Origin: Octopus vulgaris | Lineage: Eukaryota | Direction: 5' to 3' | Length of the DNA stretch: 64,000 bases | Assembly: GCA_951406725.2 (NCBI GenBank) | Contig: OX597815.1 | Span: 147,622,001-147,686,000 of the forward strand | Shown here: positions 13,221 to 52,120 of the stretch, piece by piece | How positions within the stretch are numbered: the stretch's first letter is position 1 | Layout of the letters: every line of letters starts with the position of its first letter | Made by a program: the position numbers and the translations under genes | The notes under the pieces: generated by a model | Seen by the model: the letters and a program-made list of their open reading frames with translations, nothing else | The model's database searches: none | Told to the model about the DNA's origin: nothing

Positions 13221-13300
<80 letters not shown>

Positions 13301-13304
<4 letters not shown>

Positions 13305-13378
13305 TGGACAATTGTTTCGCTATTAATAAATTATGTAATTTTACTCACACAACACATCCATAGTTCATCAGCAGAATT
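13301..13378 (-). ncRNA. Type I hammerhead ribozyme motif
   Basis: Minus strand: AUUCUG CUGAUGA ACUAU-(36 nt)-AUAGC GAAAC AAUU GUC CAGAAU. Perfect stem I, palindromic loop III, A.C at the base of stem II. Confidence 0.8.
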
Positions 13379-13785
13379 TGTCTTGAATACAATTTACCAA
13401 ACCGCATGCTAGATTTTAACATAACGCTAAACACACATGCGGTTGAGTCGATTATACTCGCAGCTATGATTCAAATGCCCCCGCTATAGTGGTCACTCTC
13501 TTATATTTATGTATAAACTTTATTGTATCCCTGGTTTTTATTCACTAAGCCACTCGGTGTTAAATTGATGGTATTATTAAATTAATATCCAATTGTTTCA
13601 CCCTTATTTTTGATTGTAATTATACTGCAGTAAATTTTTTATGCAGTATCTGTTTCCATGAATTTTGGCGTGCTATATAGCGGGGGCATTTGAATCATAA
13701 CTGCGAGTATAATCGACTAAACCGCATGTGTGTTTAGCGTTATGTTAAAATCTAGCGTGCGTTTTGGTAAATTGTATTCAAGACA

Positions 13786-13864
13786 AATTCTGCTGATGAA
13801 CTATGGATATGTTGTGTGAGTAAAATTACATAATTTATTAATAGCGAAACAATTGTCCTGAATT
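13786..13864 (+). ncRNA. Type I hammerhead ribozyme motif
   Basis: AAUUCUG CUGAUGA ACUAU...AUAGC GAAAC AAUU GUC CUGAAUU; one U.U mismatch in stem I. Confidence 0.75.
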
Positions 13865-14842
13865 AATCTACATTTTTGTTATTTTTTATCTGCCCTGCTC
13901 GTTTACGCTGATAGTTGTGCTAATTTTCATCGGAAACAATTCTTCGTGGTTGAAACCATAGCGGATCTATTTTCAGTGCTAGAGTCGACCACATAGTGGT
14001 CACTCTCTTAGATTTATGTATAAACTTTATTGTATCCCTGGTTTTTATGTACTAAGCCACTTGGTCTTAAATTAATGGTATTATTAAATTAATATCCAAT
14101 TTTTTCACCCTTATATTTGAATATATATATACGTTGGATTTCCACAAAGTTTGCGTGTCCCATTTTTTTCTGAAACGTGTTTGTTTGACGCCGGGCTAAG
14201 TTTGAAGATACTTGCCCAAGGTACTCCACAGGGAGAATGAAACGAAAGCCACGTGACTGCAAAGACAGCTTCTTAGTACACAGTGATTCTGTGTCTATCA
14301 CAAAAACGTAGAAATTAAAAACAATATATCTCTGACCCAAACATATTTAGTTTTCACATAAACACTGCAATTTTCGCGGCGGGCGGGCATCTAAACATTA
14401 CCTATACACTAGATTGTTACTTCATTATATCGAAACCAAAGAGATGAAAGGAAGATGCAGCCTTCTAGGACTTAAAATGAGTTCCCGGATGAAACACCAC
14501 TAAGTGTTTTCTCTGATGTACTTACGATGTTGTCCGCTCGGCGCCTTTCGAGTGAGCTGGAGCTGGGCAATGGAACGAAGTAGTGTATATAATGACAGAT
14601 GTAATGAATTTCAACTAGTTTCTGCTTTCTGCTTCTTGAATTTGACAATCATAAGTAAATCGCTTTATGTCTCTTGGAATTATGATTATGAATTTATGAA
14701 TTGTGATTGGCATAGTGCATCTGTGAGGGGCAAGTATTAATCAGGTTCGAAATATAAAGCAAAACATTGAAGTAAACAATCATCACGAAGAAGACGAAGA
14801 AGAATAAGGAGGAGGAGGAAGATGGCGAGGGTGTGGGGAAGA

Positions 14843-37452: not shown

Positions 37453-37545
37453 GCGGTACATATGTTTCGGGCTTTATTGAACAACTTATTCTTATATCAA
37501 TGCATAATTGATATAACAGATATATCTAAAGCCTTCTTCAGTCGC
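37453..37545 (-). ncRNA. Type I hammerhead ribozyme motif with a long stem II
   Basis: Minus strand: GCGA CUGAAGA AGGCUUUA-(about 50 nt incl. hairpin uaucaau/auugaua)-UAAAGCCC GAAAC AUAU GUA CCGC. Confidence 0.7.
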
Positions 37546-39756: not shown

Positions 39757-41219
39757 TTCCTATATATAAACATGATGATGTGTGACTAATACATCTGCAG
39801 ATTTCCACGCAACCAGTAATTGAGTTCTTAATTATTTAGTTAATTAATTAATTAAATAATTGATTAACTACACGTGTCATTATAAATAAATCTTTTTTAG
39901 GCTCTGCACTGTAAATTAATGTTTCAATCAACTGAAATTTTACGAAAAGATGTAAATTGAGTTTTCTTGTTCTTTTCACATTCACGATCCCAAAACATAT
40001 GTTTCTGCACTCGTCTACCCTTCGATTTAATCAGCGATTGATTGAATAGTTACTCAGTTCCTCTCACCAGCGTGGCTGCCTCCTTGTAACGCATCCATAC
40101 TCTCTCTCTAGCTTGTTCGCACGCACACACACCTAATTAGCCCCCGTGATACATACTCTCTTTCTCTCCCTGTATATCTCTCTTTTGAATATGTGTGTAT
40201 ATGGGAATATGTCTATAAAACGATTAAATACGTATAGTCAAAGACACATAGTTCCCGCTTCCCTATCCCAACTAATACCTCTTCTACCTGTGCTAGTATA
40301 GATCAATACTACTTGCACCTCTGTTTCTTCCTCTCTCCCTATCTCCCCCTATCTCAATCTTTCTTTAAATATTTAAAGGAGGGAAACGGCAGGCTAAGGA
40401 TGTATCGAAATTGGGTCACTGCAGAACTGAAACTTTTATTGAGAGGGTGATAATGGGCCGATGGAAACAATCCAAATAATCTTATAATGACAGCTCTAAA
40501 GCGTAATGGCTATATAAGGAGCATAGCTCACATAGAGCGAAATAAACAAGAATGTATCTGCTCCTATGATCTAATCATACCTCACATTAGCACACTGGAC
40601 ACCATCTTTGCACAGAAATAAAGAGATGATAAGGCTAGAGGCTCTGACATGAGTGGCAGATGTTACCTTGGCTCTTCTGATCCGGAAGGGAACACACCTG
40701 AAGCGAAAACCAAGATTGAGAGATCTGCTAAAGAAGAAAGCACCAGTACTGATGGTCCTACAACCACTTCCAATATCAAGACCAAAAATATGAAAGAGTT
40801 AATAAAAGGCTAAAAATTAAAGATAAAGCGAAACGTGACGACTGATAGGATGGAGATATTGTTGTGAACCGCTGCTTCTTCCATACCAAACCATATAACA
40901 GACAGATCAAAAGCTAAAACCTTCCGCCAAAAGAGAAAGAAGACTGTACAGGGAAAAAAAGTAACGTACCACACGTATTAAAACTGAAATACGCCGATGT
41001 ACAATGCACTGCCTGCAAAAAAGCCCCACCCCTATCCACAGTCCATAATACAGGATGTAGCACATCAAAAATAACTTTTACGTATGGCTGAATAGAGTGT
41101 GAAATATCTAAACTCGCTTCATCAATTGCAGGGTTGAATCCATCCCCACTAACATCCAAGACCACACCTTTCAATCAAGGGTATCCATCACTGGCATCAG
41201 CACAGAGGTCACACCGGTA

Positions 41220-43370
41220 TACTGCATAAACTTAAGAGGACAGTTACAACTCAATAAGAGCGGAAAAAATATATTTCTGAGAGAACTTGTTGCATGCAAT
41301 CAAGCCTCATGCATAGCACTCACTGAAATACACCTAAAACATGACATTGCTGAAATGATGTACAAATGCCAAAGAATGTTGTATTGCAAAGTTGCAATGT
41401 ACGTTAAGATCTCATGCCCTAGATCCTTTTGTCACACTCAAACACAGTTTGTGACAGACGAATTTTACATATAAGACAACTCCATATAATGATATGTACT
41501 ACATACCGTCCTCCAGATACCCCAAATCACATGGGTCTATTGGAAGTCTACCTTGCAAGAATAGAAGAGTAGAAACAAACTAGAAGTGCACATCAGCGTA
41601 CGTCTTATGGCGGACAACAGTCTGCCCAATTCGGAATAGCTTGAATGACGTAATGTGAGCAAGGCCATGCAGAATCCCTGCTCAAACTCACTAACAAGTT
41701 GTATATAGAGCATATAAACCCCAACCAACCAGAGCAAACAATACATTTGATCTCTGCTTCATAAACAATGTGTATCTCATCTATAATATGAAAGTGACTC
41801 AGACACTAATCTGGAGTCACAACAAAATAGAGCTAACAATATATGTACGAAAGGAACCCACAGACATGTTGCCTACAGAAGCAGCTAAAGTTTTCCCAAT
41901 CTGAACTATAACCTGGAAATCAATTGCGGAAGAGGTTACCAAACGAGACTGATCCCAGTGTCTCTCTACCCCTGACATTGACATCAAATTGAAAACTTTC
42001 ACGTCTGTAATACAAATTATATATTACAATTTTGTCACAGAGAGAAGTGCCACTGCACATAAAAACGAGGTTCTCAATGAGAGAAGCATTTTATAAGACG
42101 GCGTGCAAAGATTGCAAACCGCCTCAACAGAAAACTCAATAGAGGTAAGAAACCCCGCCTGAAAACAGCACCGTATCAGTCTGAATGAGAAGAAAACATC
42201 AGAATCTTGGGTTACAAGAAATATAAAAGGAAACCCTAAAGCTTTGTTCAGGTGCGCGAAGGAGATTACCTCTGTGTTTTGCATGGTAGGGCCACTCCTC
42301 CAAAACGATGACTCCCTCACGGGAAACCCAATGTCAATGGATGAAACACTAAATGAACAGCACCGATATGTCTTCACCTCCACCCCTATGGCACATACAT
42401 GTTAGAAAACATGTAGACTTCTTTACCGCTACAGAAGCTGAAGAGAAGTCAGTAACAATTGATCGATCAACATCGAAGAAAATTATGTAATGCTGGCAAT
42501 AGATGATTTAGATTCAAATTCAGCTGCTGGGTTTGAGTGATTTCTGACAATCCTTCTCAAGTCAAGCAAAGGAATTCTTGCAAATCTATTGCAACTACTT
42601 CTTCAGAGCTTACTTGCAAATGGTAAGCACACGGATAAACTTAATGAGGGAATAATATGACCCATTCTGAATTGAGGAAGTAGAAGTGATGCTAAAAACT
42701 CTAGACCTATTTCTCTGACCTCTCACATCAGCAAAGTCATAGAACGAATTGTCCGGAGGAAATTAATTGCATTCGTTGAAGAGAATGACTTGCTGACTGA
42801 CATCAAGCATGGCTTTCGGCCAGGTAGAAGCTGCCTGACACAGCTCCAGCAGCATTAAAACTCGGTGCTAAACAGTTGCTCAATGAGTCAAATGTGGACT
42901 TGATATAGCTTGACTTTGAAAAACTCCTTTCCTAAAGACGACAATGGTCTGATTTGTCACAAACTGCGTAATCTTGGCATAGTTGGGAACCTTGTAGCAT
43001 GGCTACATGACTTTCTCAAAGATAGAAGTGAGGTAGTAGTGACTAACGGGGCCAACATCAAGGAAACACAAATAATGAGCAGTGTTCCAAAATGCACTAT
43101 CTTAGGACCACTGCTATTCATAGTATCCCTCTCAGACATGCCCTCAGCTAATCAAGGAGCCGCTCTTGCTTTCTATGTAGACGATACAAAAGTCTCTCAG
43201 AGGATACAGAAACCTTGAAAAGTTGAGCTCCTGCAAAATGAGTTGGACGCAACATATAGATGGGCTGAGGAAAAGAACATGCAGTTTACTGCTGGAAAAT
43301 TCCAAGCCCTGTCCTACCAACACACAAAGCTGAACTACATGGAACCAAGACACACTGATCCAGAGAAGAC
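41220..43370 (+). mobile_element. Decayed CR1/Jockey-group LINE ORF2 (AP endonuclease + reverse transcriptase)
   Basis: CIALTEIHL, TYRPPD, NSRPISLTSHISKVMER-like, KHGFRPGRSCLTQL, SSVPKCTILGPLLF, YVDDTK, WAEEKNMQFTAGKFQAL; many stops and frameshifts; cut off by the tandem array. May extend upstream to about 40380. Confidence 0.9.
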
Positions 43371-43759
43371 AAATAGCTATAATCTCTTTGACTGCTATTT
43401 CTAAATTCGGTGTGCGGTAAGGCAATTCGTTGCTAAACCCTTAATTGCTTAGTATTACTTAAATTTTCCTCGAATGAGGCTTTTACATGCCGAAGACTAC
43501 TTGGTGTAATTGATAATTATTCCAAATTAATTAATTTCACCCTTCATTGTTACTGATAACCATATTCATCCCAGTAAATGACCACAGCACTTTGTCTTGG
43601 CTACACGCGGGTGGGAAGGGACTGGTGACACAAACTTTCATTCTCACTTTGAATTTGGTGATACTAGCTGTTGGCTTCTAGATCGCTCTGATACTGAGTT
43701 GAGTTGGTGCCTTCTAGTATCTCAAAATTCAATATACAATCATTCATGATTGTTTGTAT

Positions 43760-43851
43760 CCTGCGCTGATGAGAGAAGAAGTATGGGTAAGGTCGAATTA
43801 TCTAATTCTTATGCTTTCCTAAGACTTGATCTCGAAACGTACGTCCGTAGG
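43760..43851 (+). ncRNA. Type I hammerhead ribozyme, copy 1
   Basis: CCUGCG CUGAUGA GAGA-(53 nt)-UCUC GAAAC GUAC GUC^CGUAGG. Stem I CCUGCG/CGUAGG, stem II GAGA/UCUC, stem III AC/GU with a GUAC loop. Predicted cut after 43845. Confidence 0.9.
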
Positions 43852-44345
43852 TGACTTAAAACTGTATGATAGATTGCCGTTAATTAATTCTCTCTTACCT
43901 GTTTGTGTTTGCCTTTCAAATGCTGTGTTTTTACTGAGATCTCCTTTTAGTAGAAGAAATAGCTATAATCTCTTTGACTGCTATTTCTAAATTCGGTGTG
44001 CGGTAAGGCAATTCGTTGCTAAACCCTTAATTGCTTAGTATTACTTAAATTTTCCTCGAATGAGGCTTTTACATGCCGAAGACTACTTGGTGTAATTGAT
44101 AATTATTCCAAATTAATTAATTTCACCCTTCATTGTTACTGATAACCATATTCATCCCAGTAAATGACCACAGCACTTTGTCTTGGCTACACGCGGGTGG
44201 GAAGGGACTGGTGACACAAACTTTCATTCTCACTTTGAATTTGGTGATACTAGCTGTTGGCTTCTAGATCGCTCTGATACTGAGTTGAGTTGGTGCCTTC
44301 TAGTATCTCAAAATTCAATATACAATCATTCATGATTGTTTGTAT

Positions 44346-44437
44346 CCTGCGCTGATGAGAGAAGAAGTATGGGTAAGGTCGAATTATCTAATTCTTATGC
44401 TTTCCTAAGACTTGATCTCGAAACGTACGTCCGTAGG
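44346..44437 (+). ncRNA. Type I hammerhead ribozyme, copy 2
   Basis: Identical to copy 1. Confidence 0.9.
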
Positions 44438-44932
44438 TGACTTAAAACTGTATGATAGATTGCCGTTAATTAATTCTCTCTTACCTGTTTGTGTTTGCCT
44501 TTCAAATGCTGTGTTTTTACTGAGATCTCCCTTTTAGTAGAAGAAATAGCTATAATCTCTTTGACTGCTATTTCTAAATTCGGTGTGCGGTAAGGCAATT
44601 CGTTGCTAAACCCTTAATTGCTTAGTATTACTTAAATTTTCCTCGAATGAGGCTTTTACATGCCGAAGACTACTTGGTGTAATTGATAATTATTCCAAAT
44701 TAATTAATTTCACCCTTCATTGTTACTGATAACCATATTCATCCCAGTAAATGACCACAGCACTTTGTCTTGGCTACACGCGGGTGGGAAGGGACTGGTG
44801 ACACAAACTTTCATTCTCACTTTGAATTTGGTGATACTAGCTGTTGGCTTCTAGATCGCTCTGATACTGAGTTGAGTTGGTGCCTTCTAGTATCTCAAAA
44901 TTCAATATACAATCATTCATGATTGTTTGTAT

Positions 44933-45024
44933 CCTGCGCTGATGAGAGAAGAAGTATGGGTAAGGTCGAATTATCTAATTCTTATGCTTTCCTAAGACTT
45001 GATCTCGAAACGTACGTCCGTAGG
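44933..45024 (+). ncRNA. Type I hammerhead ribozyme, copy 3
   Basis: Identical to copy 1. Confidence 0.9.
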
Positions 45025-45518
45025 TGACTTAAAACTGTATGATAGATTGCCGTTAATTAATTCTCTCTTACCTGTTTGTGTTTGCCTTTCAAATGCTGTG
45101 TTTTTACTGAGATCTCCCTTTTAGTAGAAGAAATAGCTATAATCTCTTTGACTGCTATTTCTAAATTCGGTGTGCGGTAAGGCAATTCGTTGCTAAACCC
45201 TTAATTGCTTAGTATTACTTAAATTTTCCTCGAATGAGGCTTTTACATGCCGAAGACTACTTGGTGTAATTGATAATTATTCCAAATTAATTAATTTCAC
45301 CCTTCATTGTTACTGATAAACGTATTCATCCCAGTAAATGACCACAGCACTCTGTCTTGGCTACACGCGGGTGGGAAGGGACTGGTGACACAAACTTTCA
45401 TTCACACTTTGAATTTGGTGACACTAGCTGTGGCTTCTAGCTCGCTCTGATACTGAGTTGAGTTGGTGCCTTCTAGTATCTCAAAATTCAATATACAATC
45501 ATTCATGATTGTTTGTAT

Positions 45519-45610
45519 CCTGCACTGATGAGAGAAGAAGTATGGGTAAGGTCGAATTATCTAATTCTTATGCTTTCCTAAGACTTGATCTCGAAACGTA
45601 CGTCCGTAGG
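45519..45610 (+). ncRNA. Type I hammerhead ribozyme, copy 4 (A.C mismatch at the base of stem I)
   Basis: CCUGCA instead of CCUGCG; core intact. Confidence 0.8.
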
Positions 45611-46089
45611 TGACTTAAAATTGTATGATAGATTGCCGTTAATTCATTCTCTCTTACCTGTTTGTGTTTGCCTTTCAAATGCTGTGTTTTTACTGAGATC
45701 TCCCTTTTAGTAGAAGAAATAGCTATAATCTCTTTGACTGCTATTTCTACATTCGGTGTGCGGTAAGGCAATTCGTTGCTAAACCCTTAATTGTTTAGTA
45801 TATATATATATATATATAAATAGATGAGTGTATTTTTACCTTGTTAACAATTAACACGGAAAAAATATTCATATATAAATATATATATAATTCCGTCTAT
45901 CTATCAATATGTATGAGCTGTATGTGCTTCTCTATGAATATATATGTGCAATATTTACAGTGTAGAATCAGTCGTATGATGTTAGTAGTCTTGAACTAAA
46001 TAGTTTTATTACTTTCGCTCTCATCCGGGCATCTCTTCCGACTAACGTGGTGTTGGAATTTGCATCCGCCAATTATATATATCGACACA

Positions 46090-51577: not shown

Positions 51578-52120
51578 ATATATATATATATGTGTGTGTG
51601 TGAATGAATTACCCTATTCTCTTCTCTAAGGTTCCCATTGGAAACACACTCATAGAGAAATCGTACAAATGTAAACACTGGCAGAAACATAATTTTTACT
51701 CATATAAATGATTACGATAGTCATTGTGGTTTGAACAATTAGCTTAACATGCACTTCACTTCAATAGCGAAATTCTTTCCTAAGCCTTTGAACATTCTTT
51801 TAATCAACGTACCCTCCCTCTCCACTTGTTCCCTACCTATTATTCCTTTAACTCTTCTCTTCCTACTAACTAACTTTGACGTCAATTCTACTATCGGCTT
51901 TTTTAAAACACTTATTATCGTTTTGTTTACCATGTAGGCAGTCTTCGACATTTTTGTTTGTCTTGTTGTTGAGAGAGGCTCCCTTTCTTTCCTGATGAAA
52001 AGATTGCATCTCACACCCTTTATTCCTTTGGAATGAAACCATGTTGTCTTCGAAACATATGTCGAGAATAAAGGAATTTTGTAAACATCTTCGTTCGACT
52101 CCATTCCATTCTTTTATATA

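What the first reader, a model, noticed from the sequence alone, without database searches (positions are those of the whole stretch)
43760..43851. Hammerheads with an oversized stem II and a palindromic 2 bp stem III
Seen: stem II (GAGA/UCUC) encloses 53 nt that can fold further (AAGUAUGGG/CUUAUGCUU, capped by GAAUU-aucu-AAUUC). Stem III is ACGUACGU, which is self-complementary. Unrelated sequences show the same design at 13786 (ACAAUUGU) and 37453 (ACAUAUGU), each with a different palindromic tetraloop and a long stem II. Known: palindromic loop III favours cleavage as a dimeric HHR. Inference: the varying sequence with constant palindromy points to selection for dimer cleavage, which adjacent tandem copies could supply in cis.
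Basis: partly seen in the sequence, partly recalled or inferred. Interest (0 to 1): 0.75.

Follow-up and report, generated by a model that had tools for sequence, protein, structure and literature searches.

The report
Long-armed dimer hammerheads in Penelope parasites
This is a hammerhead self-cutting RNA motif in a small non-coding jumping repeat; it likely cuts as a pair (a known trick), it has an unusually long side arm that is the majority form among roughly 27,000 such motifs in this genome, and one hybrid copy joins two different families exactly at their predicted cut sites.

Summary
Confirmed: a type I hammerhead at 43760-43851 with a 61-nt stem II domain and stem III ACGUACGU. It occurs four times in a 586/587-bp tandem unit. 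The unit belongs to a young non-coding family whose copies are 5'-truncated, end in (TA)n (58 of 59 arm ends) and are often inverted: an animal retrozyme, likely moved by Penelope-like elements. Dimer cleavage is well supported but known. Loop III is a perfect palindrome in 113 of 164 sampled motifs (chance about 7%), and two tandem copies are predicted to fold unconstrained into the double hammerhead. Not found in my literature searches: stem II domains of 40 nt or more make up about 68% of ~27,500 motif matches, against 10-30 nt in related elements from metagenomes, and a published descriptor would miss them. The arm keeps pairing but not sequence or length, so it is most likely a tolerated expansion. 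One copy joins two families exactly at the scissile bond (n=1), a likely fossil of cleavage in vivo. Cleavage is untested. This scan earlier noted long-stem-II retrozymes elsewhere in this genome and in another.

The parts
43760..43851 (+). Type I hammerhead, copy 1: stem I 43760-43765/43846-43851, core CUGAUGA 43766-43772, stem II domain 43773-43833, GAA 43834-43836, palindromic stem III 43837-43844, predicted cut after C 43845
44346..44437 (+). Hammerhead copy 2, identical; predicted cis dimer partner of copy 1
44933..45024 (+). Hammerhead copy 3, identical
45519..45610 (+). Hammerhead copy 4, G>A at the first stem I pair
43371..45801 (+). Tandem array of about 4.1 units of 586/587 bp; starts at unit position 112, ends at unit position 196 against (TA)n; non-coding retrozyme-type insertion
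13786..13864 (+). Hammerhead of a second family (46-nt stem II domain, ACAAUUGU, U.U in stem I), forward arm of an inverted insertion bounded by (TA)n (about 13300-14125)
13302..13376 (-). Inverted twin of the 13786 hammerhead, stem I intact, ending 5 nt after the predicted cut site in (TA)n
37453..37545 (-). Decayed hammerhead of a third family (66-nt stem II domain, ACAUAUGU)
51988..52067 (+).

Best explanation
The motif is a type I hammerhead in a 587-bp non-coding tandem repeat that is likely spread by a Penelope-like reverse transcriptase, is predicted to cut mainly when two copies pair through their palindromic stem III, and carries a long stem II that is most likely a tolerated, pairing-constrained expansion. 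Steps: (1) a tandem array is transcribed into multimeric RNA (inferred). (2) Two neighbouring motifs swap strands and form an 8-bp stem III; both sites are cut after GUC (fold predicted, cleavage inferred). (3) Unit-length RNA with 5'-OH and cyclic-phosphate ends is circularised by a host ligase (known for other retrozymes, inferred here); as a lone copy the core mispairs (GAUG with CGUC) and is predicted to be off. (4) A (TA)n-targeting Penelope-type RT/endonuclease primes at TA-like spots 196-205 or 291-306 nt downstream of the cut and copies back across the intact cut site, giving 5'-truncated and inverted insertions (end pattern shown, enzyme inferred; a Hydra-like element with intact reading frames is a candidate). 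(5) Stem II must close next to the core, but its distal part varies freely in length and sequence provided it stays paired.
For: Palindromy: 113 of 164 distinct sampled motifs are perfect and 27 more are G.U-compatible. The innermost two bases, which cannot pair within one strand, take all four Watson-Crick forms (AT 32, TA 29, GC 16, CG 6 of 96 motifs with stem I). 26 of 36 sequence clusters have a palindromic majority loop, with 10 different palindromes; chance is 7.4%. In this lineage UA>CG changes on both sides in 3 of 21 rows. The unconstrained MFE of 43760-44437 is the double hammerhead, -187.8 against -173.0 kcal/mol for two monomers; trans dimer -54.6 against -40.0. The monomer MFE is an inactive fold. 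Mobility: 1,732 candidate places, top 41 at 98-100% identity; 58 of 59 arm 3' ends abut (TA)n, 35 at unit 196-205 and 17 at 291-306; 5' ends are scattered; 15 of 43 loci are inverted two-armed. A Hydra-like element with intact 717-aa frames, DKT and CxCx5C motifs and a (TA)n end carries the same layout (31-nt stem II domain, ACUCAGAGU). Stem II: structured in 27 clusters (mean z -2.0 against +0.27 for downstream controls, p 3e-6); no shared distal motif beyond AT-rich 6-mers; a homologous family has 25-26 nt with the same stem III. Cleavage fossil: at L271, 130 nt of another family end at its N17 and continue at position 1.1 of this family, with no shared base at the junction.
Against: No cleavage assay. 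In Xenopus, 8 of 9 predicted retrozyme dimers showed no cleavage in vitro (bioRxiv 2026.07.22.740005). The chimera is a single case: no further one (30 of 122 hits inspected) or 87 (100 of 169 listed). Copies starting exactly at the cut site are few (3 of 6 hits; I estimate 1-2 expected from uniform truncation). No blastn similarity (E<0.05) between the unit and the Hydra-like element, so the mobiliser is not identified. Only 7 of 43 loci have tandem same-strand motifs. The dimer stem III appears in the MFE of 17 of 26 cluster representatives, not all. A subfamily with A10.1.C11.1 has amplified (5 of 21 rows). Long stem II being the majority form is not explained by neutrality alone.
Confidence: 0.72

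Rival explanations
1. The long stem II is a functional module: a handle for the retrotransposon protein or a host factor, or a substitute for the loop 1-loop 2 tertiary contact through the internal loop after base pair 4.
For: About 68% of genome matches have 40 nt or more, while related elements in metagenomes have 10-30 nt (31 motifs in 77 loci). Lengths cluster at 53-61 nt (partly an effect of family size). In this lineage a 4-bp helix plus a 2x2 purine-rich internal loop is kept, with changes on both sides.
Against: No shared sequence across 27 clusters, and U at 1.7 in only 12 of 27 (the role of U1.7 is recalled). A homologous family with 25-26 nt has also amplified in tandem. Distal covariation within the family is weak.
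Confidence: 0.2
2. The motif cuts adequately as a monomer through a 2-bp stem III; the palindrome only boosts activity.
For: A 2-bp stem III axolotl motif cleaved 22% as a monomer, and coral and mussel single-motif transcripts cleaved at about 0.8 and 0.1 per min (PMC7229834). The monomer hammerhead fold is about 3 kcal/mol above the inactive MFE (-20.0 against -23.2).
Against: Innermost loop bases are kept complementary across families, which a monomer does not need. The dimer is favoured by about 15 kcal/mol.
Confidence: 0.2
3. The array is an inert DNA satellite or relic end of an old Penelope element, and the hammerhead is a passenger.
For: Most predicted Xenopus dimers were inactive in vitro (bioRxiv 2026.07.22.740005). 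Most copies are single and truncated.
Against: Near-identical dispersed copies on many chromosomes, fixed 3' ends at (TA)n and inversions, compensatory changes in stems I, II and III, and the exact cut-site chimera.
Confidence: 0.06
4. The palindrome is a DNA-level signal (transcription-factor or nuclease site).
For: The sequence is an 8-bp palindrome in DNA as well as in RNA.
Against: Ten different palindromes across clusters, G.U-compatible variants such as ACAUGUGU recur, and insertion ends are far from the palindrome.
Confidence: 0.02

Closest known systems
Animal non-LTR retrozymes (Cervera and de la Pena 2020, PMC7229834, passages and parts 2-4 of 6 read, supplement unreadable; Li et al., bioRxiv 10.64898/2026.07.22.740005, parts 1-3 of 5 read)
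   Same: Non-coding tandem repeat, one type I hammerhead per unit, GC under 45%, short stem III, co-occurring with Penelope-like elements; unit length within the 51-972 bp range of Li et al.
   Different: 61-nt stem II domain instead of a 4-bp helix with loop 2; the unit is longer than the 170-400 nt circles tested; the lone circle is predicted to misfold its core, whereas most metazoan circles were predicted to leave it free; circular RNA not shown here.
[quoted passage not shown] 2017, PMC5785218, not held, seen only as a cited title)
   Same: Type I, palindromic helix III, dimer cleavage, larger-than-canonical helix II (6-8 bp), extra or unpaired base at the foot of stem II, high family diversity.
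   Different: Their example descriptor allows helix II 3-7 bp and loop 2 3-10 nt (at most about 24 nt), so 40-100-nt domains fall outside it; stem I here is a full 6 bp.
Hydra clade of EN+ Penelope-like elements (Craig et al., bioRxiv 10.1101/2021.04.23.441226, passages and section 11 read)
   Same: (TA)n insertion, partial tandems, inverted 5'-truncated copies, hammerheads present; a matching element with intact reading frames exists in this genome.
   Different: The 587-bp family has no ORF and no detectable similarity to that element; its two 3' ends differ by about 100 nt rather than a 30-40 bp tail; Hydra-like elements in metagenomes have stem II domains of 10-30 nt.
Newt and ASBVd double hammerheads (Forster et al. 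1988; not read, cited through PMC4209133 and PMC6765202; PMC3088659 Fig. S8 legend read)
   Same: A weak palindromic stem III stabilised by pairing two copies.
   Different: No long stem II described in the passages I read.

Membership tests
Type I hammerhead ribozyme | Core CUGANGA, GAAA and NUH at a three-helix junction with open stem I | tested here: met
   covariation in stem I and proximal stem II
Type I hammerhead ribozyme | Match to an Rfam hammerhead model at gathering score | tested here: not met
   0 hits in the window; probably because of the 61-nt stem II domain (inference)
Type I hammerhead ribozyme | Loop 1-loop 2 tertiary contact | tested here: inconclusive
   No terminal loop 2 at bp 4 (an internal loop instead); no conserved positions across 27 clusters
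Type I hammerhead ribozyme | Self-cleavage at the predicted bond | not testable with these tools
   Only indirect: one exact cut-site chimera
Dimeric (double) hammerheads | Short stem III with self-complementary loop kept under sequence change | tested here: met
Dimeric (double) hammerheads | Dimer fold favoured over monomers | tested here: met
   (prediction only); 17 of 26 representatives
Animal non-LTR retrozymes | Tandem non-coding units each with a complete type I hammerhead, GC below 45-50% | tested here: met
Animal non-LTR retrozymes | Dispersed multi-copy family | tested here: met
   (490 strict-pattern matches, including close relatives)
Animal non-LTR retrozymes | Expressed as unit-length linear and circular RNA | tested here: inconclusive
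   only assembled contigs of runs guessed to be RNA; circular fold z -4.9 against 40 shuffles
Non-autonomous Penelope-like element | 5' truncation, fixed 3' ends, inverted copies, microsatellite target | tested here: met
Non-autonomous Penelope-like element | Homology to the pLTR of an autonomous element | tested here: not met
   no blastn hit at E<0.05 to the 25 coding loci L151-L175, and none outside its own copy in L111 to L111-L150; other autonomous families were not surveyed
Hydra clade (candidate helper at L161) | Under 3 kb, single ORF, DKT, CxCx5C linker, C-terminal GIY-YIG, (TA)n target, hammerhead | tested here: met
   GIY-YIG Pfam hit is weak (E 0.013, below cut-off); no tree built

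The most novel reading that the evidence does not exclude
In this lineage the hammerhead's stem II has become a functional 40-100-nt module in tens of thousands of Penelope-borne ribozymes that standard descriptors miss, and ribozyme-cut RNAs of unrelated families are joined end to end in vivo (ligation or template jump at the scissile bond) and retroposed, giving a route for shuffling modules between retroelements.
Probability: 0.2. Interest if true: 0.72.

Novelty: new variant of a known kind. Interest (0 to 1): 0.45.

Why it matters
It shows that published hammerhead descriptors can miss most motifs in some animal genomes (about 18,700 net matches with stem II domains of 40 nt or more here). 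It supplies a natural mutational series for dimer cleavage: ten loop III palindromes and stem II from 14 to 100 nt. If the cut-site chimera recurs, it is genomic evidence that these ribozymes cut in vivo and that their products are joined and copied, which bears on the open question of what Penelope hammerheads do (called unclear in Craig et al.).

Tried and rejected
Rfam scan: no hit. Expression: no RNA holder listed on record; contigs of four runs guessed to be RNA cover parts of the unit, show no splice-like joint, and cannot show ends or strand; not used as evidence. Search for a parent autonomous element by similarity to the unit: none; protein search with a decayed endonuclease fragment found nothing. 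Pile-up of 5' ends at the cut site: 3 of 6 hits, not clearly above uniform truncation. L011 looked like a second cut-site junction, but its upstream sequence resembles the 3' end of another family's copy. Further chimeras: none among 181 motifs with neighbours on both sides except L271/L349, none other, none in 30 of 122 loci (a subfamily with a different stem I), none in 100 of 169 listed. Conserved tertiary-contact bases or a distal motif across families: none. The first clustering over-merged families through flanking repeats and was redone on motif-proximal sequence. A candidate at 39994-40070 (-) had no relatives among fetched loci and is not counted. Literature searches gave no listing on long-stem-II genomic hammerheads or cut-site chimeras. 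Lunse et al. 2017 and the supplement of PMC7229834 could not be read and may bear on both novelty claims.

Full report
Observation. 43760-43851 is a complete type I hammerhead: 6-bp stem I, CUGAUGA, a 61-nt stem II domain closed by GAGA/UCUC, GAA, ACGUACGU and C17. It repeats every 586-587 bp, four times, in an array spanning 43371-45801 that ends in (TA)n. The motifs at 13786 and 37453 are real; the second is decayed in stem I relative to four relatives. Two more lie at 13302-13376 (-) and 51988-52067 (+). Rfam finds nothing.

Genome scale. The genome is 2.8 Gb; no call names the species (earlier scan notes call it octopus-like). The pattern CTGATGA-gap-GAAAC-N4-GTH gives 9,120 matches for gaps of 9-39 nt (control 299), 15,894 for 40-70 (control 446) and 3,596 for 71-101 (control 297). 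Net, about 27,500 matches, 68% with 40 nt or more. The pattern sees only one core variant, a motif can be counted twice, and the longest class includes unrelated repeats (8 of 20 sampled were palindromic).

Stem III. I scanned the window, the 80 loci returned by those searches and 60 further stretches covering most of the remaining first-100 hits on contig C1. Of 164 distinct motifs, 113 have a perfect palindrome, 27 are G.U-compatible and 24 neither; chance is 7.4%. Among the 96 with four paired stem I bases, the innermost loop dinucleotide is AT, TA, GC or CG in 83. Those two bases cannot pair within one strand, so this points to pairing between two copies. By cluster, 26 of 36 have a palindromic majority loop, with ten different sequences. 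Two tandem copies fold, unconstrained, into the double hammerhead (-187.8 against -173.0 kcal/mol), while a lone motif or circle mispairs its core. Against necessity, a 2-bp stem III axolotl motif cleaved 22% as a monomer (PMC7229834), 8 of 9 Xenopus dimers did not cleave in vitro (bioRxiv 2026.07.22.740005), and only 7 of 43 family loci have tandem same-strand motifs.

Host element. The unit has 1,732 candidate places, the best at 98-100% identity. In 43 loci (chosen to contain the motif), 58 of 59 arm 3' ends abut (TA)n, 35 at unit 196-205 and 17 at 291-306; 5' ends are scattered; 15 loci are inverted two-armed. These are Penelope-type signatures (Craig et al., passages and section 11). Every motif-bearing copy crosses an intact cut site, so its template was a circle or an uncut multimer (inference). 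The genome holds a Hydra-like Penelope element with intact 717-aa frames in 2,590-bp tandems, DKT and CxCx5C motifs and a (TA)n end; its non-coding end has a hammerhead with core CCGAAGA, a 31-nt stem II domain and ACUCAGAGU (read by eye). Older decayed relatives show a similar motif with a roughly 60-nt stem II domain behind the endonuclease remnant (read by eye). The unit shows no blastn similarity to these, so the helper is a candidate only.

Stem II. In 27 clusters with 40 nt or more, the domain folds better than its shuffles (mean z -2.0; downstream control +0.27; p 3e-6). Compensatory changes concentrate in the four pairs next to the core. No distal motif or tertiary-contact base is shared. 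A family homologous through its 3' region and ends has a 25-26-nt domain with the same stem III. Hydra-like elements from metagenomes gave 31 motifs in 77 loci, all 10-30 nt although up to about 120 nt was allowed; that scan required a self-complementary stem III. The example descriptor of PMC4209133 caps the domain at about 24 nt. The simplest reading is a lineage-wide, pairing-constrained expansion at a site the dimer does not need; a functional role is not excluded.

Cut-site chimera. Searching for copies whose base before position 1 is not C gave six hits: three begin exactly at the predicted cut, two (L266, L267, one inverted insertion) carry a short deletion in stem III, and one is a point change. 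One of the three, L271, is a two-armed insertion of this family whose forward arm is preceded by 130 nt of a different young family (68-nt stem II domain, 12-nt palindrome). That segment ends at its own N17, where native copies continue TAAAGT, and joins position 1.1 of this family with no shared base on either side. Ligation of two cut RNAs (RtcB circularises retrozyme RNA in vitro, PMC7229834) or a template jump would explain it; both need both motifs to have cut. It is one case, three follow-up searches found no other, and assembly error is not excluded.

Verdict. A real motif in a known class of element, using a known dimer mechanism. The long stem II as the dominant form, and the chimera, were not found in my searches; Lunse et al. 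2017 and the PMC7229834 supplement were unavailable. Earlier scan notes had already flagged long-stem-II retrozymes in this genome and in one other. New variant of a known kind; interest 0.45.

Noticed in passing
L271 (G000:C16:33249373-33249560): Chimeric insertion joining two hammerhead families exactly at the scissile bond, no microhomology; single case.
   Followed up: yes
L350-L368: Young family (3,110 candidate places, tandem period about 485-490 bp) with a 68-nt stem II domain and a 12-nt palindromic stem III; its dimer MFE forms the double hammerhead.
   Followed up: partly
L161:1084-3760 (G000:C21:8154000-8163900): Hydra-like Penelope element with many intact 717-aa frames in tandem and inverted arrays; its hammerhead has the core variant CCGAAGA and an odd-length palindrome.
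   Followed up: partly
L111-L140, 100-300 nt downstream of the endonuclease remnant: Old decayed Penelope copies share a hammerhead-like end with a core that appears one base longer (CUGAAAGA), a long stem II and ACUAUUAGU; read by eye.
   Followed up: no
window 42600-43370: Decayed LINE-type reverse transcriptase remnant (type recalled, not searched) directly 5' of the array.
   Followed up: no
window 43950-44035 (unit 105-190): Two hairpins and a TTCGGT-GCGG stretch shared with several related families just before the first 3' end; possible RT recognition element.
   Followed up: partly
window 14095-14120 and 44110-44135: A short TTTCACCCTT-like motif lies 10-25 nt before a (TA)n end in both the 13786 family and this family; by eye only.
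   Followed up: no
L238, L242, L243, L250, L263: Subfamily with an A.C mismatch at the normally G-C pair 10.1-11.1 that has amplified in tandem; unpaired closing bases (A.A, U.U, C.A) are common genome-wide.
   Followed up: partly
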